This document shows, one piece after another, positions 1 to 13,997 of a stretch of 22,899 nucleotides of DNA (the stretch's first letter is position 1; each line of letters starts with the position of its first letter). Under the pieces are notes generated by a model. The model did no database searches. It was not told the DNA's origin and saw only the letters and a program-made list of their open reading frames with translations. The DNA lies in IMG/VR virus record IMGVR_UViG_3300030379_000127, positions 1 to 22,899 of that record, one strand, 5' to 3'. A program made the translations under genes and the position numbers. Source of the stretch: a virus. Lineage: Duplodnaviria; Heunggongvirae; Uroviricota; Caudoviricetes.

Positions 1-203
1 CGTGCTTGATAAGTATAAGTGAGCTGAAACACACGGTGGCAGTCACGGCAGCGAAATCTGTCACGGCCTTTAGGGTTTTGACCATGGCGGTAAACCCGAG
101 CTAACTGACAACGGGGACAATGAATATTAACGCTGGTTATGAGATAACCTCAAAAGCCCGTATTATACATCAGATTCAACTAATTAGAGGCATCACCAGA
201 AAT

Positions 204-606: not shown

Positions 607-3583
607 TATTTAGCTCCTTTGCCACACCTAATAACAGTTCCAGCAATCCGTCACCATTCATCAGTGATGCGGCAGCGGCCTCTTTGTCATGATACAACTG
701 AAGAGCCATAGAGAATACTTCCGTTGCTGACGTTTTGGAAATAGTCGGTGATTTCTGCCGAATTTTCCCGGTGTTACTTACTGAGGCTGGCGGGTATACC
801 TTCGCCATATAAATATTACTCAATCGAGATCTGAAGCACCATTCAGGCTTGCCACGCCCACCGATATTAACGAAAGATGGCTTATCCCCTTCAACATTGG
901 CCTTCAGGAATGACCGGGCTTTCTCTAACAAACCAGGGTTACTGTACTCAAGATGATGACCCAGCTCGTGCCACAGTGCACTTGCATTTTCATCGTTCAA
1001 ATTGACAGCAACAACACCATTTAGATTTGCATATGCCCTTCCCTGGTGGTGAACCACCTTTGATAAGGTCGAAATTTTACCGCCGGTCAGGCGATAAATA
1101 TCAGCAAGTTCCTTGCGCAGGTCTATCCCACCATTCTGTCCAGCGCGGGCTTCTTCCACTTCTTCCGTGATAAAAGAGTCGGCCCACTCAAGAGCTTTTT
1201 CTTCAGATACGGATGAGTTGGCGATCGCACTGTTCATGGCAGATAACACTTTCTCGTGGACCGAACCCATACTTCGCTGATTCATTTGCCAGCGTGTCTG
1301 CGGGTTATATGAGAATCGCTTAAGTAGTTGGTCAAGATGCTCAAGTTCTTCTTCGCTGACATACTTTTTAGCCTCACAAATAATGCCGGGGAGAATATTG
1401 CCGTTAGGATTAAACGCTCGCGAAAGGAAGAGTTTCAGCGCCCCCATGCCCTCCGATGCTTCAATATCACCAATAACCCGGTTAACAATGGCCGCACTCT
1501 TCGGATTAGCATCCGCCAACGCTCTGGCTACGATTTGCAGGGACGATACGACCTCACGCTGCATATCCGTCCTGATCTCATCAATAAACTCTGGCGTTAT
1601 GCCGTGCTCTTTAAGGATATCCCTGCCTTCCGCCGTTACCCCATCGATATCACCGACATGTTTATTAACCCGACTTTGCAATGCCTTAAATGCCTTCAGA
1701 ATTCCACGGGCATCATCCACTTTACTAACGGCCTTCCTGAATGCTGGCAAGAAGTCAGAGTTAACCTCATTTTGTTGATCGGCCCACTGAATGGAGGCTT
1801 CTTTCATCTCGTCCAGAGTCAGATCACCCAACGCGGTATGGTCTGTGAATATGAGCGACAACCTCTGAACCATTTCTGCCAATGGTGATGCCGAATGCGC
1901 CGCGCTAAGGAATGCTTTCACCCTGGTTGGGCGAATGGAAAACCAGTCAATAGCTGGTGGCATATCTCCGTTTTTTATCGCCTGCGCTATCTCATCAAAG
2001 CCGTCGCGCCCAAGGGAGGATGCGTGATTTAACAATCCGCGAAGTAACGAATTGCTGATACCGAATAATCGGCACCATTTTTTTACGTCGGCAACAGGCA
2101 TTCGGACAAAATGCGCAAGCACTTGTACAAGCTGCTCATCCTGGGGATCGGTGCGGGATAGCAGCCTGATCAGATGAATAATGTCTTTGATGCCGGATGC
2201 CCGATGTAATAGCAAGCTGGTATATGGAGCAACACCGTTGTAACTACCGCCGGAAACGGACTCGAAAAGACCGCCGGATATCCCTTGCATGCCTTCGTTT
2301 TCCAGTTCCTGAGACACCTGGCGAAGGATATCCTGTAACGACACATCGCCGCCGCCAAACATATCCCCGAGCGCCTGGCCCTGGTGCTGTAACTCATCAT
2401 TGATACGTTGCGCCATCAACTTAAAGGCGGTGGCCATACGCTTCGCGCTACGGTTATTCGCGACGATGAACAACGCGAGTGCTTTCACTTCCGGGGCCGT
2501 TTCGCTGAACATATCCCCCTGAGCAATAACATCGGTAATATGCTGGCCTGACTCCTTCGATTGCCTTACCAGGTCTACCGCATCTTTCAATGCCGCCAGC
2601 GCCTTTTTATCGAGGCTATCCGCTGTCTCAATGCCATCAACAATAGTTGTCACAGCCTGCTTGTGCGCTTCTCCTGACAAAGCCTGCATCTGGACAAAAT
2701 CATTGGCTGCCGCATTAAGCGCCGTCAGAACATTACGCATATCCGGATCAGGTTCTTCTGCAACCATCCTTACCAGGCGCGCATCCTTATATGCCTTGGC
2801 AAAGATCGCGTTTTGTATACGGTCTACAAGTTGCCGTGTTGGTCGCCCATCTTCAGTTACAAGGCCAGCCGCCTGTGTGGCACCAACTTGCGTCATAAAT
2901 CCGCGAATAAACGTGTCATTACTGCGGCTAAGCAGATCTCCGCTTTCTGACGGGTTAAAAAGCGCCATCATCGCCGGTGTTATGCTGTCGGCATCAACAA
3001 AAGCCTTTTCACTGGCTGCCATTTCCTGAAGATCAGAAATATTTGAGTCCTTGGCAAACTGAACGCGGTCAACCTTAGTTAACCGGCGGCGCACCAGTAC
3101 CGGAGCCGTCATTGATTCAACCTTTTCAGGTCGTATGCCGAATTCGGTCGCATGATCAATCAGGTACTCACGATACCGATCCGCATTGCCGTCCTGATAG
3201 GCTTTAATGATCCCCATGGTCCGTCCATTACCTGACTCAACGGCATTGTCCTCACCAATTATCGGCGCGCCATGGCTGGATAGACCGGAATCGGTAAGCT
3301 GAGCAGGCCGCAAATCCTTGGATATCTGGTTAACCTGAAGAAGGCTGGATGCGCGGGTCCGGTCGCGCGGTTGAAGTTCCTGGGGATAGTCAGGATTAAT
3401 TTTCCCATCCAGAGTATTGGATACCAAAAGAGCTGAGGCATCGACGATATCAAACGCTGTTTTTACCTCGTCTCCCTTCGCTGTCACCACATACGAAACC
3501 CGCCCATAATCGGGCAAGTTCTTTAGCAGCTCGATCAGCGTTTCTATGCTGGTGGCCATTACCACCTGATCGCTTAAGCTCAT
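596..3583 (-). CDS. ddrB: Large DarA-operon protein, DdrB-like (995 aa), with an HEXXH zincin-like motif
   Basis: Long uninterrupted ORF immediately downstream of the ddrA-like and darA-like genes; size and position match my recollection of P1 ddrB. HELGHH motif is encoded at 953..970 (minus strand). Confidence 0.45.
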   Translation of the reverse strand: MSLSDQVVMATSIETLIELLKNLPDYGRVSYVVTAKGDEVKTAFDIVDASALLVSNTLDGKINPDYPQELQPRDRTRASSLLQVNQISKDLRPAQLTDSGLSSHGAPIIGEDNAVESGNGRTMGIIKAYQDGNADRYREYLIDHATEFGIRPEKVESMTAPVLVRRRLTKVDRVQFAKDSNISDLQEMAASEKAFVDADSITPAMMALFNPSESGDLLSRSNDTFIRGFMTQVGATQAAGLVTEDGRPTRQLVDRIQNAIFAKAYKDARLVRMVAEEPDPDMRNVLTALNAAANDFVQMQALSGEAHKQAVTTIVDGIETADSLDKKALAALKDAVDLVRQSKESGQHITDVIAQGDMFSETAPEVKALALFIVANNRSAKRMATAFKLMAQRINDELQHQGQALGDMFGGGDVSLQDILRQVSQELENEGMQGISGGLFESVSGGSYNGVAPYTSLLLHRASGIKDIIHLIRLLSRTDPQDEQLVQVLAHFVRMPVADVKKWCRLFGISNSLLRGLLNHASSLGRDGFDEIAQAIKNGDMPPAIDWFSIRPTRVKAFLSAAHSASPLAEMVQRLSLIFTDHTALGDLTLDEMKEASIQWADQQNEVNSDFLPAFRKAVSKVDDARGILKAFKALQSRVNKHVGDIDGVTAEGRDILKEHGITPEFIDEIRTDMQREVVSSLQIVARALADANPKSAAIVNRVIGDIEASEGMGALKLFLSRAFNPNGNILPGIICEAKKYVSEEELEHLDQLLKRFSYNPQTRWQMNQRSMGSVHEKVLSAMNSAIANSSVSEEKALEWADSFITEEVEEARAGQNGGIDLRKELADIYRLTGGKISTLSKVVHHQGRAYANLNGVVAVNLNDENASALWHELGHHLEYSNPGLLEKARSFLKANVEGDKPSFVNIGGRGKPEWCFRSRLSNIYMAKVYPPASVSNTGKIRQKSPTISKTSATEVFSMALQLYHDKEAAAASLMNGDGLLELLLGVAKELNNAD

Positions 3584-8010: not shown

Positions 8011-8238
8011 TTACAGCTCAGATTGAGTTTGGCGCTTCTCTACAGGATGATAACGATAAATCGTCGATACACCGATATCGTAAATAATTGCCAACTGTTT
8101 CCTGCTGTAGCCATTTTCGATCAACCTCGCTATTTGCTCATGTTGTTCTTTTGTCAACTTCGGGCGACGTCCGCCAATGCGTCCCTGTTCGCGTGCAGCT
8201 GCCAGTCCGGCCAGTGTTCTCTCAACAATTAATTCACG
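8011..8238 (-). pseudogene. cin: Serine DNA-invertase, detached C-terminal (helix-turn-helix) fragment
   Basis: Minus-strand translation RELIVERTLAGLAAAREQGRIGGRRPKLTKEQHEQIARLIENGYSRKQLAIIYDIGVSTIYRYHP matches the C-terminal DNA-binding region of Gin/Cin/Hin/Min invertases. Homology starts abruptly at 8238, at a crossover core; the ORF sequence upstream of it is unrelated antisense of cassette 1. Confidence 0.85.
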
Positions 8239-8252
8239 TTGGTTTGGGGGAA
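8227..8252. other. Hybrid crossover site (junction B): aattaattcacg-TT-ggtttgggggaa
   Basis: Right half-site ggtttgggggaa is identical to the cassette sites; the left half is invertase coding sequence. The TT core at 8239..8240 is the breakpoint. Confidence 0.75.
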
Positions 8253-8705
8253 GGCTCAGCATTGCCTGTTGGCGTACCTGTTCCGTGGCCCTCAGCCACT
8301 CCGCCAACGGGGTGGCTGAAATGTAACGGAGCAGCATTTTCTTCTGAAAAGTACCCAAATCTGGCAAAGGCTTACCCTACTAATAAATTGCCGGATTTAC
8401 GCGGTGAATTTATTCGTGGCTGGGATGACGGACGTGGTGTGGATGCCGGGCGACAATTATTATCTTCACAGGGGGATGCAATAAGAAATATTGAGGGGTT
8501 CGCAGATGGCGGGATCGGCATGTCTTTTGATGCAATCAGAGGGGCTTTTTACGATGCAGGAACACGATCAGCGAGAATGCCGAATAACACAACTACTATA
8601 GACAAAACCGATGACCTTGGATTCGACGCCTCTCGTGTCGTGCCAACAGCTAATGAAAACCGTCCTCGTAATATTGCCTTTAATTATATCGTAAGGGCGG
8701 CATAA
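8241..8705 (+). CDS. Tail-fibre C-terminal cassette 1 (promoterless 3' gene segment)
   Basis: Reads GLGEGSALPVGVPVPWPSATPPTGWLKCNGAAFSSEKYPNLAKAYPTNKLPDLRGEFIRGWDDGRG, then a unique core, then RPRNIAFNYIVRAA-stop. No start codon or RBS of its own. Confidence 0.75.
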   Translation, partial: GLGEGSALPVGVPVPWPSATPPTGWLKCNGAAFSSEKYPNLAKAYPTNKLPDLRGEFIRGWDDGRGVDAGRQLLSSQGDAIRNIEGFADGGIGMSFDAIRGAFYDAGTRSARMPNNTTTIDKTDDLGFDASRVVPTANENRPRNIAFNYIVRAA

Positions 8706-8724
8706 AAACGTTGGTTTGGGGGAA
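8699..8724 (+). other. Crossover site 2: ggcataaaaacg-TT-ggtttgggggaa
   Basis: 26-bp site with a 2-bp core; resembles gix/hix (TTATCnAAAACC-nn-GGTTTnnnGAAA-like). The left half overlaps the stop codon of cassette 1. Confidence 0.7.
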
Positions 8725-9144
8725 GGCTCTGCACTGCCTGTTGGTGTGCCCGTTCCGTGGCCCTTAGAAACACCACCAACGGGCTGGCTAAAATGCAATG
8801 GTGCAGCATTTTCTTCTGAAATGTATCCCAAACTGGCAAAAGCCTACCCCACCAATAAATTACCGGATTTACGCGGTGAATTTATCCGTGGCTGGGATGA
8901 TGGGCGCGGGATTGATGCGGGACGTACCCTGCTTTCAGGGCAGGATGGTACAAGTTTTTCTCATTACGGAGGTAATTTCGACATTGGGTCTGGTCATTCA
9001 ATCAATAACTATGACCAAATTGTTTCTAACCAACCAGGATTTTCCCGTTTTTCATTTGCAGGGCCTTCACGAGGTGATGGGGTTAATTATGTAACCATTC
9101 GTCCTCGTAACATTGCGTTTAATTATATCGTAAGGGCGGCATGA
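8713..9144 (+). CDS. Tail-fibre C-terminal cassette 2
   Basis: Conserved 5' end (GLGEGSALPVGVPVPWPLETPPTGWLKCNGAAFSSEMYPKLAKAYPTNKLPDLRGEFIRGWDDGRGID), unique core, conserved 3' end RPRNIAFNYIVRAA. Confidence 0.75.
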   Translation, partial: GLGEGSALPVGVPVPWPLETPPTGWLKCNGAAFSSEMYPKLAKAYPTNKLPDLRGEFIRGWDDGRGIDAGRTLLSGQDGTSFSHYGGNFDIGSGHSINNYDQIVSNQPGFSRFSFAGPSRGDGVNYVTIRPRNIAFNYIVRAA

Positions 9145-9163
9145 AAACGTTGGTTTAGGGGAA
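9138..9163 (+). other. Crossover site 3: ggcatgaaaacg-TT-ggtttaggggaa
   Basis: Same architecture as site 2; overlaps the stop codon of cassette 2. Confidence 0.7.
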
Positions 9164-9658
9164 GGCTCGGCGCTGCCCGTTGGTGTACCTATTCCATGGC
9201 CCTCAGCCACACCGCCAACGGGGTGGCTGAAATGCAATGGTGCAGCATTTTCTTCTGAAAAGTACCCAAATCTGGCAAAGGTTTACCCAACGTTAAAATT
9301 ACCTGATTTACGCGGTGAATTTATCCGTGGCTGGGATGATGGGCGCGGGGTGGATGCTGGCCGCGCTTTGCTTAATTGGCAGCCACACACAATTTTGGAC
9401 CATGCACACTATATGGAATTATGGACAGGGGACGGACTCGCCGCAGGAAGTGCACGGGAAGGCGTAAATCCAGGAATACTAGCTACATACGGTGACGGGG
9501 GAATAGTTAAAACGGACGAACCCGGTCATAAGGTGCCTTCCTCACTACGAGCTATTAGCTCTCGTAGTGTTAAACGTTATGGTGAAATTAGTGGAAATGT
9601 AGGTACAGAAACTCGCCCTCGCAACGTTGCATTTAATTACATCGTAAGGGCGGCATAA
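9152..9658 (+). CDS. Tail-fibre C-terminal cassette 3
   Basis: In-frame translation from the site gives GLGEGSALPVGVPIPWPSATPPTGWLKCNG...GWDDGRGVDAGRALLNW..., ending ETRPRNVAFNYIVRAA. The ORF track lists only the 3' part (9350..9658) because there is no in-frame start codon upstream, consistent with a silent cassette. Confidence 0.7.
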   Translation, partial: GLGEGSALPVGVPIPWPSATPPTGWLKCNGAAFSSEKYPNLAKVYPTLKLPDLRGEFIRGWDDGRGVDAGRALLNWQPHTILDHAHYMELWTGDGLAAGSAREGVNPGILATYGDGGIVKTDEPGHKVPSSLRAISSRSVKRYGEISGNVGTETRPRNVAFNYIVRAA

Positions 9659-9677
9659 AAACGTTGGTTTAGGGGAA
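9652..9677 (+). other. Crossover site 4: ggcataaaaacg-TT-ggtttaggggaa
   Basis: Conserved 26-bp site overlapping the stop codon of cassette 3. Confidence 0.7.
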
Positions 9678-10136
9678 GGCTCTGCACTGCCTGTTGGTGT
9701 GCCCGTTCCGTGGCCCTTAGAAACACCACCAACGGGCTGGCTAAAATGCAATGGTGCAGCATTTTCTTCTGAAATGTATCCCAAACTGGCAAAGGCTTAC
9801 CCTACTAATAAATTGCCGGATTTACGCGGTGAATTTATTCGTGGCTGGGATGACGGGCGGGGGATTGACTCTGGCCGTAATTTATTATCTGCACAGAATG
9901 ATGCAATTCAGAATATTGTTGGTTCTTTCGGGCGTACTCAGCTTTTTAGAGATGTACTTAGTTCAGGGCCATTTAGTCAACATGGTCAAGTATTATCTAC
10001 AGGCCTAAAGGAAACGGAAATTATTGAGGGTTATGGCTCTTATAACTGGACATTCGACGCCTCTCGCTCAGTTCGTACAGCATCTGAAACCCGCCCCCGT
10101 AATATTGCATTTAATTACATCGTAAGGGCGGCATAA
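9666..10136 (+). CDS. Tail-fibre C-terminal cassette 4
   Basis: Conserved 5' and 3' ends, unique core (...LLSAQNDAIQNIVGSFGRTQLFRDVLSSGPFSQHGQVLSTGLKETEIIEGYGSYNWTFDASRSV...). Confidence 0.75.
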   Translation, partial: GLGEGSALPVGVPVPWPLETPPTGWLKCNGAAFSSEMYPKLAKAYPTNKLPDLRGEFIRGWDDGRGIDSGRNLLSAQNDAIQNIVGSFGRTQLFRDVLSSGPFSQHGQVLSTGLKETEIIEGYGSYNWTFDASRSVRTASETRPRNIAFNYIVRAA

Positions 10137-10155
10137 AAACGTTGGTTTAGGGGAA
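10130..10155 (+). other. Crossover site 5: ggcataaaaacg-TT-ggtttaggggaa
   Basis: Conserved 26-bp site overlapping the stop codon of cassette 4. Confidence 0.7.
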
Positions 10156-10650
10156 GGCTCGGCGCTGCCCGTTGGTGTGCCTGTTCCGTGGCCCTCCGCC
10201 ACACCACCAACGGGGTGGCTGAAATGTAACGGAGCAGCATTTTCTTCTGAAAAGTACCCAAATCTGGCAAAGGTTTACCCAACGTTAAAATTACCTGATT
10301 TACGCGGTGAGTTTATCCGTGGTTGGGATGATTCGAGAGGGATTGATACAGGGCGTTCATTGCTAAGTGGTCAGACTGCAACATTTATTCGTACAGCTTT
10401 GCAGGATTATTACGGTGTCGATCTGACTACTAATGTCAAAGTAGGTATCGCTTATGCTACTGCTGATTCTGTTATAACTGTTGGAAACCCTGCTAATCCT
10501 AAAGCAGGAGATAATAGCGATTATGTTCCAGCATCATCAGATAACTCCATAACAGGCACTCAAAGGACGGCAGAGGATAATTTTACCGGGGCATGGATAT
10601 CAATGCGCCCCCGCAACGTTGCTTTTAATTACATTGTAAGGGCCACATAA
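10144..10650 (+). CDS. Tail-fibre C-terminal cassette 5
   Basis: Conserved 5' end, unique core, conserved 3' end (RPRNVAFNYIVRAT). Confidence 0.75.
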   Translation, partial: GLGEGSALPVGVPVPWPSATPPTGWLKCNGAAFSSEKYPNLAKVYPTLKLPDLRGEFIRGWDDSRGIDTGRSLLSGQTATFIRTALQDYYGVDLTTNVKVGIAYATADSVITVGNPANPKAGDNSDYVPASSDNSITGTQRTAEDNFTGAWISMRPRNVAFNYIVRAT

Positions 10651-10669
10651 AAACGTTGGTTTAGGGGAA
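10644..10669 (+). other. Crossover site 6: cacataaaaacg-TT-ggtttaggggaa
   Basis: Conserved 26-bp site overlapping the stop codon of cassette 5. Confidence 0.7.
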
Positions 10670-11158
10670 GGCTCGGCGCTGCCCGTTGGTGTGCCTGTTC
10701 CGTGGCCCTCAGCCACACCGCCAACGGGGTGGCTGAAATGCAATGGTGCAGCATTTTCTTCTGAAAAGTACCCAAATCTGGCAAAGGTTTACCCAACGTT
10801 AAAATTACCTGATTTACGCGGTGAGTTTATCCGTGGCTGGGATGATGGGCGAGGGATTGACTCTGGTCGCTCTATTTTAAGCGAGCAAGGATATGCAACG
10901 GAGGATCATGCTCACGGATTACCGTCAAAATCAACCGTAGCAACTGACCGCTCAATTAATTTCTACTTTGACGAGGCATGGGCTACTAGTGGTAATACGG
11001 GAGTTATCAGATGGGGGAACACAAGCGATGCAGGATTGCCAGCCCCTAATTATGGAACTTTTAAAACATATAAACAGTCCGTAGCTAATTTAGGTACTGC
11101 TGGCTTAGAAACCCGCCCTCGTAATATTGCATTTAATTATATTGTGAGGGCGGATTAA
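10658..11158 (+). CDS. Tail-fibre C-terminal cassette 6 (last of the plus-strand array)
   Basis: Conserved 5' end, unique core, 3' end RPRNIAFNYIVRAD-stop. No crossover site follows; it abuts the 3' end of the convergent tail-fibre-assembly gene. Confidence 0.75.
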   Translation, partial: GLGEGSALPVGVPVPWPSATPPTGWLKCNGAAFSSEKYPNLAKVYPTLKLPDLRGEFIRGWDDGRGIDSGRSILSEQGYATEDHAHGLPSKSTVATDRSINFYFDEAWATSGNTGVIRWGNTSDAGLPAPNYGTFKTYKQSVANLGTAGLETRPRNIAFNYIVRAD

Positions 11159-11163
11159 TTATA

Positions 11164-11775
11164 TCAACTGGCTGTAGAAAGTTGTTTTTCAGGCCAGTTG
11201 AGATCTGGTGCCGTGGTTAAATCCATCGCGTTCAGCTCGTCTATATAATCTAGCACGGAGTTAAGCTGCGTGGTTTCTGCCTGCGTCAACTTCCGTCCAG
11301 CCCGTAATTTCAACTGAATCAGACTAATGGAATCCATCGCAGTATCAATCAATGACTGACGTTTTGTTTCTGCTGCCTCTACAGCTGCACTATGTTGAGC
11401 CTCAGTATCAACCACCCATTTCTCTCCATCCCATTTGTCGTATGGTGTTAGCGGGGCGATAGTGGTTGTATTTTCCGGATAGTCACCCAACACCGTGATT
11501 TCTTCGGGATTCCCAGTGTCAATGCTATAGACAGTTTCGCCACGATGATCTGGCACATACTCCCATGAACTTAAATCCTCTGAACGGAGAATCGCATAAC
11601 CTGCTTTATGTGAGCCTGGAGCATCCAAACAAGAATTTGCCGGAATACCAACGCCAACAGCAAGATATTCAGTTGATGCAGAAATATATTCCCGATTACC
11701 ACCATCATAGTTATAAACGATAATGTTTCCTGCCTGTATGGCTATAAGTTCGCTATTTAATATCGCATTATCCAT
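11164..11775 (-). CDS. Tail-fibre assembly chaperone (Tfa/U-like, 203 aa)
   Basis: Start overlaps the cassette 7 stop (TAATG). C-terminal region (LIQLKLRAGRKLTQAETTQLNSVLDYIDELNAMDLTTAPDLNWPEKQ) fits the conserved C-terminal pattern of caudoviral tail-fibre assembly proteins. It is the only such gene in the array. Confidence 0.6.
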   Translation of the reverse strand: MDNAILNSELIAIQAGNIIVYNYDGGNREYISASTEYLAVGVGIPANSCLDAPGSHKAGYAILRSEDLSSWEYVPDHRGETVYSIDTGNPEEITVLGDYPENTTTIAPLTPYDKWDGEKWVVDTEAQHSAAVEAAETKRQSLIDTAMDSISLIQLKLRAGRKLTQAETTQLNSVLDYIDELNAMDLTTAPDLNWPEKQLSTAS

Positions 11776-12236
11776 TATGCTGCTCTCACAATATAATTGA
11801 AGGCAATGTTACGTGGGCGGGTTTCATTCCCCCCAGATAACTCCGTTCTGTATTGACTGGTAAATTTACCATTAATCGCTCCTTGCCGGACGGCGTTATC
11901 TGTCGACAACAGACTATCCCCCCCTCTGTCATTTGGCACCAATACCGTGTTATCCCACGCGTCCCATGACCGAATATTATGATAATGACTTCCTGTTAAC
12001 CACCCCTGTATGCTTAAGATGACCCTTCCCGCATCCACACCTCGCCCATCATCCCAACCACGGATAAACTCACCGCGTAAATCCGGTAATTTATTGGTGG
12101 GGTAGGCCTTTGCCAGTTTGGGATACATTTCAGAAGAAAATGCTGCACCATTGCATTTTAGCCAGCCCGTTGGTGGTGTTTCTAAGGGCCACGGAACGGG
12201 CACACCAACAGGCAGTGCAGAGCCTTCCCCCAAACC
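11775..12236 (-). CDS. Tail-fibre C-terminal cassette 7 (opposite orientation to cassettes 1-6, co-oriented with tfa)
   Basis: Minus-strand translation (G)LGEGSALPVGVPVPWPLETPPTGWLKCNGAAFSSEMYPKLAKAYPTNKLPDLRGEFIRGWDDGRGVDAGR...ETRPRNIAFNYIVRAA; begins at crossover site 7. Confidence 0.75.
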   Translation of the reverse strand, partial: GLGEGSALPVGVPVPWPLETPPTGWLKCNGAAFSSEMYPKLAKAYPTNKLPDLRGEFIRGWDDGRGVDAGRVILSIQGWLTGSHYHNIRSWDAWDNTVLVPNDRGGDSLLSTDNAVRQGAINGKFTSQYRTELSGGNETRPRNIAFNYIVRAA

Positions 12237-12250
12237 AACGTTTTAGTCTT
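12225..12250 (-). other. Crossover site 7 (inverted): reverse complement aagactaaaacg-TT-ggtttgggggaa
   Basis: Same right half-site as the other cassettes but in inverted orientation; its outer flank leads into the invertase 5' region (SD aagagg at 12289..12294, ATG at 12305). Confidence 0.7.
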
Positions 12251-12304
12251 AATCCCTACCTATACCAACGATGTATTTTTAACTAAACAAAGAGGTTGTT
12301 TTTC

Positions 12305-12742
12305 ATGCAAATTGGCTACATTCGTGTGTCAACAAATGACCAAAACACAGATTTACAAAGAAATGCACTGAACTGCGCAGGATGTGAACTGATTTTTGAA
12401 GATAAAATAAGCGGAACAAAGTCAGCCAGACCAGGCTTGAAAAAGCTGCTCAGAACGTTATCAGAAGGAGATACGCTGGTTGTCTGGAAGCTGGATAGGC
12501 TTGGCAGAAGTATGAAACACCTTATCACGCTTATAGAGGAGTTGCGGGAAAAAGGTGTTAATTTCCGTAGTCTGACAGACAGTATTGACACATCAACACC
12601 CATGGGGCGTTTCTTTTTTCATGTCATGGGTGCTTTAGCAGAAATGGAAGGTAATCAAGAACGCTCTGAATACTGGTCTTACCAAGAATGGCGCGTCCAA
12701 CACTTGTCAATGCAGTTAACGCGGCACGATCAACACCTGTGA
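12305..12742 (+). pseudogene. cin: Serine DNA-invertase, N-terminal catalytic fragment (about 115 aa of homology, then 30 unrelated codons)
   Basis: MQIGYIRVSTNDQNTDLQRNALNCAGCELIFEDK...LVVWKLDRLGRSMKHL...SLTDSIDTSTPMGRFFFHVMGALAEME is a typical resolvase/invertase catalytic domain with the active-site Ser in RVSTNDQ. Homology stops at 12649, at the AA core; the rest of the ORF is antisense of the tail-fibre 3' end. Confidence 0.85.
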
Positions 12743-13997
12743 AATAAGGGAGTTTATCTGCTGCTGTAGCTAGTGCCGCTAGAGCAGTGAGCGTAGCGTC
12801 TGCCGCTTGCTTTCCATTAGCCAAATCATATGCAGCCTTGACAGCTTTCGGTGTGGCGGCCAGCACTTCGGACGTGCTATTGGTAGCACTGCTGAGTTGG
12901 ACTATCCCTTTTTGAGCCGTGGTTGCATCCTGGGCTGTATACTTCCCGTTAGCCAAATCATATGCAGCCTTGACAGCTTTCGGTGTGGCGGCCAGCACTT
13001 CAGACGTGCTGTTAGTGGCACTACTGAGCTGAGTGATGCCTTTCGCTGTCAATGAAGCTGTTGGCACACCAGTGATCTGATTCCAGGGATGTGTATGACT
13101 GGATGGTGCCTTTCCGGCTGCTAGATCGTATGCAGCTTTAACCGCTTTTGGAGTTGCAGCTAATGTTTCAGAAGTGCTGTTGGTGTCGCTACTGAGCTGA
13201 ACTATCCCTTTTTGTGTCGTGGTTGCATCCTGGGCTGTATACTTCCCGTTAGCCAGGTCATATGCAGCCTTGACAGCTTTCGGTGTGGCGGCCAGCACTT
13301 CAGACGTGCTGTTAGTGGCACTACTGAGCTGAACTAATCCCTTTTGCGTTGTGCTTGCATCCTGCGCCGTATACTTGCTTTTCGCCAGATCGTAGGCTTT
13401 TTTAACTGCCAGCGAACTCGCAGCAACATCACTTCTGGTACTGGTTACAGAGTCTGAAATATCAATGCCGATCGTGCGGTTGATACGCTCGGATGTATCA
13501 ATCATCTCTTGAGTAATGGTAGATACGCCAGCAGGGATATTCACCGTACAAACCAGCAGTTCCCCATCACCTAACTGATATGAATCGGTATAGGTTCTGG
13601 CAACAAATTCAGCTGCATGAATATGTGACGCGGTATTCACCTGATAGGTATCTTCTCCAAGAAGGTATCTTCCCTTCAGCACAATTGCATATTTCTTGCC
13701 TGCGTTAAGTGCAAGAGAGATATCCTTACGATGCTGAATAGTTACCTGGTAGAATTCACCAATATCCACTGACGCCGCGCCAGCGGTTTTATCTCCATCC
13801 ACTGAGGTGATTAACAGGTTCATCCCACCGCCAGGCTTAGGCAAGAAACCAGCATAAAATCCCGGGTCAACAATTCCCCTGAATTTTCGGTTTAGAGCGG
13901 CTGACAGATATGGTTCGTGGTATTGCACATCAGCCACCAGAGCCAACGACTCGGGTGATGGGTAAGTAACCGATGTAACAACTGTAACGTCATTCAT
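12624..13997 (-). CDS. Tail-fibre protein, constant N-terminal portion, disconnected from all C-terminal cassettes
   Basis: Start MNDVTVV with SD aagga 8 nt upstream (the ORF track's 14084 start overlaps the upstream gene). Contains the tail-fibre repeat KYTAQDATTTQKGIVQLSSATNSTSEVLAATPKAVKAAYDLANG about four times. Ends ...SIQSVLDYL then PFLLKHP-stop, where a cassette (GLGEGSALPVG...) would be expected. Confidence 0.8.
   Translation of the reverse strand: MNDVTVVTSVTYPSPESLALVADVQYHEPYLSAALNRKFRGIVDPGFYAGFLPKPGGGMNLLITSVDGDKTAGAASVDIGEFYQVTIQHRKDISLALNAGKKYAIVLKGRYLLGEDTYQVNTASHIHAAEFVARTYTDSYQLGDGELLVCTVNIPAGVSTITQEMIDTSERINRTIGIDISDSVTSTRSDVAASSLAVKKAYDLAKSKYTAQDASTTQKGLVQLSSATNSTSEVLAATPKAVKAAYDLANGKYTAQDATTTQKGIVQLSSDTNSTSETLAATPKAVKAAYDLAAGKAPSSHTHPWNQITGVPTASLTAKGITQLSSATNSTSEVLAATPKAVKAAYDLANGKYTAQDATTAQKGIVQLSSATNSTSEVLAATPKAVKAAYDLANGKQAADATLTALAALATAADKLPYFTGVDRAALTALTSVGRAILGKTSIQSVLDYLPFLLKHP
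12636..12661. other. Hybrid crossover site (junction A): tagcagaaatgg-AA-ggtaatcaagaa
   Basis: Right of the AA core (12648..12649) is the fibre constant-region half-site (reverse complement TTCTTGATTACC, like the hix left half TTCTTGAAAACC); left of it is invertase coding sequence. Confidence 0.75.
12810..13425. repeat. Tandem 111-bp (37-codon) repeats inside the tail-fibre constant region, about 4.5 copies
   Basis: Near-identical DNA blocks (for example gccagcacttc(g/a)gacgtgct(a/g)tt(g/a)gt(a/g)gcact(g/a)ctgag...) recur with 111-bp period; the plus-strand antisense ORF 12807..13055 shows the same periodicity. Confidence 0.8.

What the first reader, a model, noticed from the sequence alone, without database searches (positions are those of the whole stretch)
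8011..12742. Invertase gene bisected and tail-fibre gene truncated by an inversion through a site inside the invertase ORF
The invertase catalytic half (MQIGYIRVSTNDQ...HVMGALAEME, plus strand 12305..12649) and its DNA-binding half (RELIVERTLAGLAAAREQGRIGGRRPK...IGVSTIYRY, minus strand 8238..8011) lie 4.4 kb apart on opposite strands. Both breaks fall on a 2-bp AA/TT dinucleotide. Junction A now reads gcagaaatgg-AA-ggtaatcaagaa and junction B reads aattaattcacg-TT-ggtttgggggaa. Exchanging partners at the dinucleotide rebuilds an uninterrupted invertase (...ALAEME|RELIVERT...) of about 189 aa. It also rebuilds a tail fibre that reads from the constant region straight into cassette 1 (...SIQSVLDYL|GLGEGSALPVGVPVPWP...) through a site TTCTTGATTACC-TT-GGTTTGGGGGAA. 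The rebuilt map is canonical: constant region, invertible cassette region, boundary site, then the invertase transcribed away from the segment. As it stands the fibre ORF ends 7 codons past the core (PFLLKHP-stop) with no receptor-binding tip, and the invertase lacks its helix-turn-helix domain. Crossover at a 2-bp core is how serine recombinases exchange strands, so this looks like the invertase recombining the fibre expression site with a secondary site in its own gene (tagcagaaatgg-AA-cgtgaattaatt, about 6 of 12 matches in one half-site). The result is a locked switch.
Basis: partly seen in the sequence, partly recalled or inferred. Interest (0 to 1): 0.92.

Follow-up and report, generated by a model that had tools for sequence, protein, structure and literature searches.

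The report
Invertase split by its own inversion
In a P1-like phage-plasmid from a human gut sample, the enzyme that flips tail-fibre gene cassettes recombined the fibre gene with a weak look-alike site inside its own gene, breaking both; the same internal site was hit independently in two P2-like prophages, so this is a recurrent failure mode of these switches.

Summary
The invertase N-half (12305..12649, +) and C-half (8238..8011, -) lie on opposite strands. Inverting 8241..12647 in silico rebuilds a 573-nt gene identical at 573/573 nt to the intact invertase of E. coli plasmid p64EVA-6. It also rebuilds an S fibre that reads into cassette 1. Both breaks fall on the 2-bp core of the fibre expression site, with no base gained or lost. 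This is the signature of serine-invertase strand exchange at a secondary site.

The locus is a p15B-Min-type multi-cassette switch (seven cassettes, one tfa) in a P1-like plasmid. Both novel junctions are reproduced base for base by at least three assemblers, but all from one metagenome sample. The junction is absent from 5,426 complete E. coli genomes, PLSDB, INPHARED, IMG/VR and GTDB representatives.

New here: the same dinucleotide (codon E115|R116) was used independently in two P2-like prophage lineages. One is an inversion with both junctions on an NCBI contig, whose rebuilt protein is 100% identical to an intact allele. The other is a deletion against the neighbouring boundary site. That position is the best of 103 AA/TT positions in the gene against the Gin inner-core consensus AAASSWWSSTTT.

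Verdict: a real, rare, recurrent self-inactivating accident. It is a new variant of known quasi-site recombination.

The parts
8011..8238 (-). Invertase C-terminal half: codons 116-190 plus stop, the end of helix E and the HTH_7 DNA-binding domain
   Evidence: Translation. Pfam HTH_7 E=1.9e-15. Identical to nt 346-573 of the intact p64EVA-6 gene.
8011..8367 (-). Chimeric ORF of 118 aa: 42 codons antisense of cassette 1 fused to the invertase C-half
   Evidence: The same protein (P0123) occurs only on contigs of the same sample.
8227..8252 (+). Junction B hybrid site AATTAATTCACG-TT-GGTTTGGGGGAA (core 8239-8240): in-gene half plus cassette half
   Evidence: 100% identical in L002 and L003.
8241..8705 (+). 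Cassette 1 (154 aa alternative fibre C-terminus), the cassette expressed before the event
   Evidence: Pfam Collar.
8699..10669 (+). Five silent crossover sites, (GGCAT/CACAT)RAAAACG-TT-GGTTTRGGGGAA, at 8699, 9138, 9652, 10130 and 10644
8713..11158 (+). Cassettes 2-6 (143, 168, 156, 168 and 166 aa). Their order and number depend on the assembly.
   Evidence: They are collapsed into one hybrid cassette in SPAdes contig L003.
11164..11775 (-). Tail fibre assembly gene (tfa/U-like), 203 aa
   Evidence: Pfam Caudo_TAP E=3e-30.
11775..12236 (-). Cassette 7 (153 aa), forming a unit with tfa
12225..12250 (-). Boundary crossover site AAGACTAAAACG-TT-GGTTTGGGGGAA next to the invertase promoter region
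   Evidence: The same site is found next to the intact invertase in p64EVA-6 (L001 4331-4356).
12305..12649 (+). Invertase N-terminal half: codons 1-115, the catalytic domain with the RVSTNDQ serine motif, cut inside helix E
   Evidence: Pfam Resolvase E=1e-43. Aligns with Mu Gin 3UJ3/4M6F residue for residue.
12323..12394 (+). Putative Fis-dependent recombinational enhancer (gene nt 19-90), now carried inside the inverted segment
   Evidence: Assigned by position and sequence similarity to the enhancer annotated in P1 cin. Not tested functionally.
12305..12742 (+). Chimeric ORF of 145 aa: invertase 1-115 plus 30 codons antisense of S
   Evidence: P0121.
12636..12661 (+). Junction A hybrid site TAGCAGAAATGG-AA-GGTAATCAAGAA (core 12648-12649): in-gene half plus S-constant half
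   Evidence: 100% identical in L002, L003 and L004.
12624..13997 (-). Truncated S tail-fibre gene (457 aa as assembled). It ends 7 codons past the core and has no receptor-binding cassette.
   Evidence: Phage_fiber_2 repeats, no Collar domain.

Best explanation
The window is the late region of a P1-like phage-plasmid. Its tail-fibre gene S is diversified by a p15B-Min-type multiple-inversion system: seven C-terminal cassettes, each preceded by a 26-bp crossover site, one tfa, and a Gin/Cin-family serine invertase. In the immediate ancestor the layout was invertase(-) | boundary site | cassette 7 + tfa | cassettes 6..1 | S constant region, with S reading into cassette 1.

An invertase then synapsed the S expression site TTCCCCCAAACC-AA-GGTAATCAAGAA with a secondary (quasi) site inside its own coding sequence, TAGCAGAAATGG-AA-CGTGAATTAATT (codons 111-119, in helix E). 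The enzyme was most likely this one, but it could have been a cross-reacting one in the cell. It made the usual 2-bp staggered cuts at the matching AA/TT cores, rotated the subunits and religated. The 4.4-kb segment between the cores was inverted.

Shown: the two reciprocal hybrid junctions; exact conservation of sequence; the AA cores in opposite orientation, as inversion requires; and independent recurrence at the same dinucleotide. Inferred: the enzyme responsible and the consequences. The N-fragment lacks half of helix E and the HTH, so it should be inactive. S lacks a receptor-binding tip, so virions should not adsorb. The switch cannot reverse unless another Din-family invertase acts in trans on the hybrid sites.
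For: Reciprocity and conservation: inverting 8241..12647 rebuilds both ORFs. The rebuilt invertase gene is 573/573 nt identical to the intact p64EVA-6 gene.

Crossover position: the parental sequences share only the AA dinucleotide. That dinucleotide is the core of the intact expression site in relatives.

Polarity: in the rebuilt map the + strand reads TT at the in-gene site and AA at the S site. The cores are therefore inverted relative to each other, which is the arrangement that gives inversion.

Intact layout in relatives: p64EVA-6 and the STEC1590 prophage.

Reality of the junctions: both are identical in contigs from three assembly pipelines, SPAdes coverage 17x, with the MEGAHIT contigs crossing each junction separately.

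Recurrence:
- L009 (NCBI GCA_037047765.1) and L008 (Logan ERR11200800) are P2-like prophages carrying TTCTTGATTACC-TT-CCATTTCGGCTA and TTCTCCTAAACC-AA-CGTGAATTAATT.
- Their rebuilt 199-aa protein is 100% identical to the intact WP_001165544.1 of STEC1590. It is a different allele from the window's.
- L010/L011, P2-like prophages at a different chromosomal locus, carry TTCCCCCAAACC-AA-CGTGAATTAATT with an intact H expression site and no N-half. This is a deletion between the boundary site and the in-gene site.

Site quality: the inner 12 bp AATGG-AA-CGTGA match AAASSWWSSTTT at 9/12. This is the single best of 103 AA/TT positions in the gene and in the top 2% of the window. The consensus is taken from PMC5175349.
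Against: All reads behind the window come from one metagenome sample (PRJEB6997/ERR589835). No reads could be mapped, so a minority or mixed population cannot be excluded.

Outer half-site similarity of the in-gene site is no better than background: 11/24, and 22% of AA-core 26-mers in the window do as well. Binding by the HTH domains is therefore not explained.

The cassette array is repetitive and was assembled differently by different tools.

The junction is absent from 5,426 complete E. coli genomes, PLSDB, INPHARED, IMG/VR and GTDB representatives. The event is rare.

My search for recurrences was anchored on invertase ORFs. It cannot show that the invertase gene is preferred over other quasi-sites.
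Confidence: 0.85

Rival explanations
1. Assembly artefact: the junctions are chimeras created when short reads from a population of flipping cassettes were assembled, and the true molecule has an intact invertase and fibre.
For: The source is a short-read gut metagenome. The cassette region is repetitive and demonstrably mis-assembled: L003 collapses six cassettes, and the S repeat block differs between assemblies.
Against: The in-gene site is not a repeat. It shares only 2 bp with the S site, so no de Bruijn or overlap graph can join them without reads that contain the junction. Three pipelines reproduce both junctions base for base, with no branch to the intact form. The same junction type occurs in an NCBI genome contig with both junctions on one contig, and in Logan assemblies of other runs. 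The breakpoints coincide exactly with the enzyme's cleavage dinucleotide.
Confidence: 0.04
2. Real junctions, but only a transient or minority isomer. The invertase visits the in-gene site reversibly, and the sample holds a mixture in which intact molecules still supply enzyme.
For: The hybrid sites each keep one good half-site, as natural silent sites do, so reversal in trans is conceivable. Coverage is only about 17x.
Against: All assemblers pass through both junctions without breaking, which argues against a comparable amount of the intact path. The P2-like inversion state is fixed in genome assemblies from several runs, with one nucleotide difference between them (P0001 vs P0122). This indicates stable inheritance.
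Confidence: 0.08
3. Illegitimate or microhomology-mediated inversion, such as a replication template switch or RecA-independent event, unrelated to the invertase.
For: Only 2 bp of identity lies at the junctions, which is compatible with microhomology events. The outer half-sites of the in-gene site are poor.
Against: The exchange is perfectly reciprocal with no loss or gain. The S-side break lies exactly at the known crossover core. The same in-gene dinucleotide was used three times, with two different bona fide crossover sites as partners (expression site, boundary site). That dinucleotide is the best inner-core match in the gene.
Confidence: 0.02
4. Programmed self-inactivation: the in-gene site is a selected 'fuse' that lets the element irreversibly lock or disable the switch.
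For: Recurrence at one dinucleotide in three lineages. The site lies in a conserved motif whose GAA codon supplies the AA core. The P1 cin gene has the same ATGG-AA-CGTGAG.
Against: The inversion product also destroys the fibre, which is a dead end for the phage. The event is very rare: 0 of about 1,000 invertase-bearing records in complete E. coli genomes. The amino acids AEMERE are conserved for protein reasons, as they are in Gin, and GAA is simply the common Glu codon. No functional product is created.
Confidence: 0.03

Closest known systems
Min multiple-inversion system of plasmid p15B (Sandmeier, Iida, Arber; cited in PMC5903667 and PMC6906374)
   Same: It sits on a P1-related plasmid. 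It has several 26-bp crossover sites in front of alternative tail-fibre C-terminal cassettes. A Din-family invertase gene lies at one edge, transcribed away from the cassettes. Intact relatives of this window have exactly that layout.
   Different: Here the invertase gene itself is one of the recombining partners. As a result the invertase and the fibre gene are both disrupted.
Cin / C-segment of phage P1 and Gin / G-segment of Mu
   Same: The backbone is the same: the window is 97% identical to P1 outside the switch. The enzyme family is the same: about 75% identity to Gin over 185 residues. The sites share the 2-bp core and the AAACC-WW-GGTTT inner site, and the enhancer lies in the 5' end of the gene.
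   Different: P1 has two sites and one invertible segment. Its cin faces the segment, with cixL at its 3' end. This locus has at least eight sites and the opposite gene orientation.
Quasi-cix / secondary crossover-site recombination by Cin, and pseudo-gix sites used by engineered Gin
   Same: Low-frequency recombination occurs between a bona fide site and a weakly similar site that has the same central dinucleotide. The exchange is exact at the core. It depends on the inner 12 bp AAASSWWSSTTT (PMC5175349). The classical Cin quasi-site work by Iida and colleagues (1980s-90s) is recalled from memory and could not be read here.
   Different: Those cases were laboratory observations on plasmid or chromosomal targets. 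Here the quasi-site lies in the recombinase ORF. The events are found in natural isolates and metagenomes, recur in P1-like and P2-like elements, and inactivate the enzyme.
Phase-locked invertible switches caused by recombinase loss (for example hin or fim recombinase mutants)
   Same: The end state is an invertible region frozen for lack of its recombinase.
   Different: The locking lesion is produced by the recombination reaction itself, not by point mutation, IS insertion or deletion. It freezes the fibre gene in a non-functional configuration.

Membership tests
Din-family serine DNA invertases (Gin/Cin/Hin/Pin/Min) | N-terminal resolvase-type catalytic domain with the serine nucleophile motif | tested here: met
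   Pfam PF00239 E=2e-51 on the rebuilt protein and E=1e-43 on the N-half. RVSTNDQ is present.
Din-family serine DNA invertases (Gin/Cin/Hin/Pin/Min) | C-terminal HTH_7 DNA-binding domain joined through helix E | tested here: met
   PF02796 E=3e-15 at residues 138-180 of the rebuilt protein. In the window as it stands the domain is on the other strand, 4.4 kb away.
Din-family serine DNA invertases (Gin/Cin/Hin/Pin/Min) | Close end-to-end similarity to a characterised member | tested here: met
   phmmer E=4e-92 to Mu Gin 4M6F/3UJ3, residues 1-185 aligned without gaps. P1 Cin is also collinear.
Din-family serine DNA invertases (Gin/Cin/Hin/Pin/Min) | 26-bp crossover sites with a 2-bp core and AAACC/GGTTT inner arms, in inverted orientation | tested here: met
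   Eight sites are listed. The inner 12 bp score 10-12/12 against AAASSWWSSTTT.
Din-family serine DNA invertases (Gin/Cin/Hin/Pin/Min) | Fis-dependent enhancer in the 5' part of the invertase gene | tested here: inconclusive
   The region homologous to the annotated P1 cin enhancer (nt 19-90) is present and similar. Fis binding and function are not testable here.
Din-family serine DNA invertases (Gin/Cin/Hin/Pin/Min) | Catalysis of inversion | not testable with these tools
   Inferred only, from isomeric cassette arrangements among relatives.
p15B-Min-type multiple-inversion tail-fibre system | More than two crossover sites, each preceding an alternative fibre C-terminus that shares conserved 5' and 3' ends | tested here: met
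   Seven cassettes of 143-168 aa all start GLGEGSALPVG and end RPRN(I/V)AFNYIVRA. Each carries a Collar domain.
p15B-Min-type multiple-inversion tail-fibre system | A constant fibre gene ending at a crossover site and fused in frame to one cassette | tested here: not met
   In the window, S ends 7 codons after the core with no cassette. The feature is met only after in-silico re-inversion, and in relatives. The system is therefore a disrupted member.
Secondary (quasi-site) recombination by a serine invertase | Crossover confined to the 2-bp core, with the same dinucleotide in both partners | tested here: met
   AA in both parents. The flanking bases differ on both sides, so the exchange is mapped to the dinucleotide.
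Secondary (quasi-site) recombination by a serine invertase | Conservative, reciprocal products | tested here: met
   Both junctions are present and the rebuild is 573/573 nt. The same holds for L009, with 199/199 aa.
Secondary (quasi-site) recombination by a serine invertase | Partial resemblance of the quasi-site to the natural site | tested here: inconclusive
   The inner core matches 9/12, the best in the gene. The outer half-sites are at background level, 11/24.

The most novel reading that the evidence does not exclude
The codon-115/116 site is not just an accident-prone sequence. It would be a conserved, functionally relevant secondary site of Min/Cin-type invertase genes, giving these phage switches a built-in, low-frequency, irreversible 'off' reaction by inversion or deletion. 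This reaction would remove the recombinase and freeze or disable host-range variation, and could contribute to prophage domestication.
Probability: 0.05. Interest if true: 0.8.

Novelty: new variant of a known kind. Interest (0 to 1): 0.5.

Why it matters
It shows in natural DNA, at base-pair resolution, that a tail-fibre invertase can destroy its own gene and its target gene in one off-target reaction. It also shows that the same internal dinucleotide is hit repeatedly in unrelated phage backbones (P1-like and P2-like).

This gives a concrete, testable explanation for some 'truncated invertase' and 'truncated tail fibre' pseudogenes annotated in prophages and phage-plasmids. It provides a natural data point on what a Din-family enzyme needs in a target: the inner 12 bp and a matching core dinucleotide seem to matter more than the outer HTH-binding arms. 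It also flags a liability for anyone using these invertases or cassette systems as engineering parts. A synonymous GAA-to-GAG change at codon 115 should remove it.

Tried and rejected
- Searches for the exact junction A 24-mer in IMG/VR and GTDB representative genomes found nothing. A generic junction B 21-mer found nothing in IMG/VR or GTDB, and only the same-sample SPAdes contig in the metagenome collection.
- Megablast of junction A against complete E. coli genomes, PLSDB and INPHARED found no record crossing the junction.
- Literature searches for quasi-cix and secondary crossover sites returned nothing relevant in the held library. The 1995 J Bacteriol paper and the P1 genome paper are not held.
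- pSvP1 (MN510446), described as having a partial N-terminal invertase ORF, is not in the collections.
- Loci L002-L004 and L008-L011 were not exposed to Python, so comparisons used DNA alignment and get_sequence.
- Other resolvase-only ORFs were checked as possible further cases and rejected. Most are frameshifts (P0015-P0023, P0026, P0040, P0116), IS insertions (P0002, P0039) or different breakpoints (P0071, P0077, P0088-P0091).
- The 88% single-strand match of L009 to STEC1590 looked at first like another split copy. It is an intact isomer.
- Simple half-site identity was rejected as an explanation for site choice.

Full report
**What the window is.** The 22.9-kb window is collinear with phage P1 at about 97% identity over 76% of its length: ddrB, darA, lydA/B, then S, R, 16, bplA and sit. 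The part that does not match P1 is the tail-fibre switch. In place of P1's two-site C segment there is a multi-cassette region of the p15B-Min type. Closely related E. coli phage-plasmids such as p64EVA-6 show the intact layout. They have a 190-aa recombinase on the minus strand, a boundary crossover site, eight silent fibre cassettes with one tfa, and an S gene that reads into a further, expressed cassette. The crossover sites in the window and in p64EVA-6 have the form X12-TT-GGTTTRGGGGAA. The expression site in p64EVA-6 is TTCTTGATTACC-TT-GGTTTAGGGGAA.

**Checking the observation.**
- The plus strand 12305..12649 encodes invertase residues 1-115 and then runs into 30 nonsense codons, which are the antisense of S.
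- The minus strand 8238..8011 encodes residues 116-190.
- S ends ...VLDYL-PFLLKHP-stop.
- The hybrid junctions are TAGCAGAAATGG-AA-GGTAATCAAGAA (12636..12661) and AATTAATTCACG-TT-GGTTTGGGGGAA (8227..8252).
- Inverting 8241..12647 in silico restores both reading frames.
- The rebuilt 573-nt invertase gene has no mismatch against the intact gene of p64EVA-6.

The exchange was therefore conservative to the base, and it was recent. Pfam assigns Resolvase to the N-half, HTH_7 to the C-half, fibre repeats to S, Collar domains to the cassettes and Caudo_TAP to tfa. The rebuilt protein aligns without gaps to Mu Gin (3UJ3/4M6F, E about 1e-92). This places the break inside helix E and the HTH at residues 138-180.

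**Is it an assembly artefact?** The chimeric 145-aa ORF and the chimeric 118-aa ORF were looked up by exact sequence in about 15 billion public proteins. They occur only on contigs derived from one human-gut metagenome (PRJEB6997, run ERR589835, sample SAMEA2737840). That sample was assembled by at least three pipelines: a scaffolded assembly, metaSPAdes (NODE_1811, coverage 17) and MEGAHIT. The window is the JGI/IMG copy.

Junction A is 100% identical in all four sequences, and junction B in all three that reach it. The MEGAHIT contigs cross each junction separately. The in-gene site and the S site share only two bases, so no assembler could join them without reads that contain the junction. 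By contrast, the repetitive interior is unreliable. SPAdes collapses six cassettes into one hybrid, and the S repeat block differs in length between assemblies. The junctions are therefore real DNA. What remains untested is what fraction of the population carries them.

**Rarity.** No record in 5,426 complete E. coli genomes, PLSDB or INPHARED crosses junction A. Exact junction patterns are absent from IMG/VR and from GTDB species representatives. In the metagenome collection they occur only in the same-sample contig.

A homology search with the chimeric ORF found a 90% cluster of three sequences with the same break, AEME|GNQE..., but a different antisense-fibre tail.

*First additional lineage (inversion).* These sequences lie on P2-like prophages, not P1-like plasmids: Logan ERR11200800 (L008) and NCBI GCA_037047765.1 (L009). 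L009 carries both junctions on one contig. They are TTCTTGATTACC-TT-CCATTTCGGCTA at the end of fibre gene H, and TTCTCCTAAACC-AA-CGTGAATTAATT in front of the C-half. Its two halves rebuild a 199-aa protein that is 100% identical to the intact recombinase WP_001165544.1 of the STEC1590 chromosome. The DNA differs from that gene at only about three synonymous positions. It differs from the window's allele at many synonymous sites and in the whole C-terminal tail. Each split allele thus has its own intact twin, so the two inversions arose independently.

*Second additional lineage (deletion).* L010 and L011 are P2-like prophages next to serS, whereas L009 lies next to pgsA/uvrC. They have TTCCCCCAAACC-AA-CGTGAATTAATT joined to the C-half, an intact H expression site, and no N-half or promoter. 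This is the product expected from a deletion between the boundary site and the in-gene site. Those two sites are direct repeats about 415 bp apart in the intact layout.

Altogether, one dinucleotide in the gene was used in three lineages, with two different bona fide partner sites, and in two reaction types.

**Why that position?** Ungapped identity of the outer half-sites to any natural half-site is 11/24. This is unremarkable, because 22% of all AA-core 26-mers in the window do as well. The inner 12 bp, AATGG-AA-CGTGA, match the sequence reported as important for the Gin catalytic domain, AAASSWWSSTTT (PMC5175349), at 9/12. The SS-WW-SS centre is fully matched. This is the single best score among the 103 AA/TT positions of the gene, and it falls in the top 2% (71 of 3,586) of the window.

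If AA/TT positions in the gene were chosen uniformly, three lineages hitting the same one would have a probability of about 1e-4. One caveat applies. My search was anchored on invertase ORFs, so it cannot show that the invertase gene is favoured over the roughly 60 comparably scoring positions elsewhere in the window. Two factors could also enrich for this class among surviving products. One is proximity to the enhancer (gene nt 19-90 by homology to P1). The other is that killing the enzyme makes the event irreversible. Both are inferences.

**Mechanism and consequences.** The evidence fits strand exchange by a serine invertase between the S expression site and a quasi-site in the invertase ORF. 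The exchange is at 2-bp staggered cuts, the cores are matched and oppositely oriented, and the products are reciprocal. The remaining steps are inferred.
- The 115-residue fragment lacks half of helix E and the DNA-binding domain, so it should be inactive.
- S lacks any receptor-binding cassette, so particles should not adsorb.
- The plasmid prophage can still be inherited.
- 'Locked' is conditional. Din-family invertases cross-complement (established knowledge; see reference 33 in PMC5903667), and both hybrid sites keep one good half-site, as natural silent sites do. A trans-acting enzyme could reverse the event. It could also fuse S to another cassette, or delete the N-half and restore S-cassette 7-tfa.

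**Rivals.** These are a pure assembly chimera (about 4%), a real but minority or reversible isomer (about 8%), microhomology-mediated illegitimate inversion (about 2%), and a selected 'fuse' (about 3%). Each is weighed in the rival-explanations section.

**Comparison with known systems and novelty.** The enzyme and sites pass the sequence-level membership tests for the Din family. The locus is a disrupted member of the p15B-Min-type multiple-inversion systems. Recombination by Cin at quasi-cix sites with matching central dinucleotides is classical laboratory knowledge. Pseudo-gix sites are exploited in engineering (PMC5175349). I did not find, in the searchable literature, a description of a natural, recurrent quasi-site inside the invertase gene itself that inactivates both enzyme and target. 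I rate this a new variant of a known kind.

**Interest.** Interest is moderate at 0.5. The finding is mechanistically neat, recurrent and immediately testable.

Noticed in passing
Proteins P0031, P0042, P0044, P0048, P0050, P0051, P0052; not in the window: Salmonella Typhi 'site-specific recombinase' ORFs all lose homology to the invertase after ...ERTRA (residue 125). They continue into at least seven different tails, one of them an in-frame fibre cassette. This could be a second breakpoint class or a draft-assembly artefact.
   Followed up: no
Proteins P0091 and P0152: There are CP-933H-type fusions: invertase residues 1-108 joined to the C-part of Tfa, and the N-part of Tfa joined to the invertase from about residue 121. 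They are not reciprocal at one dinucleotide, since 12 codons are missing, so this is a different kind of rearrangement between the invertase and tfa genes.
   Followed up: no
window 12800..13500 (S constant region repeats); L003 10065..11138: The Phage_fiber_2 repeat block of S gives a 457-aa S in the window, L002 and L004, but 357 aa in the SPAdes contig. The complete S of p64EVA-6 is 793 aa (about 640 aa of it constant region). The repeats are probably collapsed by short-read assembly, so the length of S in the window should not be trusted.
   Followed up: partly
window 8241..11158 versus L003 8196..8604: The six direct cassettes share about 210 bp of near-identical 5' sequence. One assembler collapsed them into a single cassette-1/cassette-6 hybrid. 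The order and number of cassettes in the window depend on the assembly.
   Followed up: partly
L007 (P1) 2161..2735 versus window 12225..12649, L001 3704..4356: P1 cin is transcribed toward the C segment, with cixL overlapping its stop codon. The Min-type gene is transcribed away from the cassettes, with the boundary site upstream of its promoter. P1 cin nevertheless carries the same ATGG-AA-CGTGAG sequence at codons 114-117.
   Followed up: partly
window 11164..11775: There is only one tail-fibre assembly gene for seven cassettes. It forms a unit with cassette 7. In the rebuilt ancestral map it points away from S, so it would not be co-transcribed with the expressed cassette 1.
   Followed up: no
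Literature: pSvP1, GenBank MN510446 (PMC6906374): A published P1-like plasmid is described as carrying only a 'partial invertase orf [N-catalytic domain]'. It might be another product of recombination at the in-gene site, but the record is not in the available collections.
   Followed up: partly
L010 1041..2860: The P2-like prophage that carries the deletion product also has an IS3-family element that truncates both the integrase and the 5' part of fibre gene H. It is a decaying prophage with several independent lesions.
   Followed up: no
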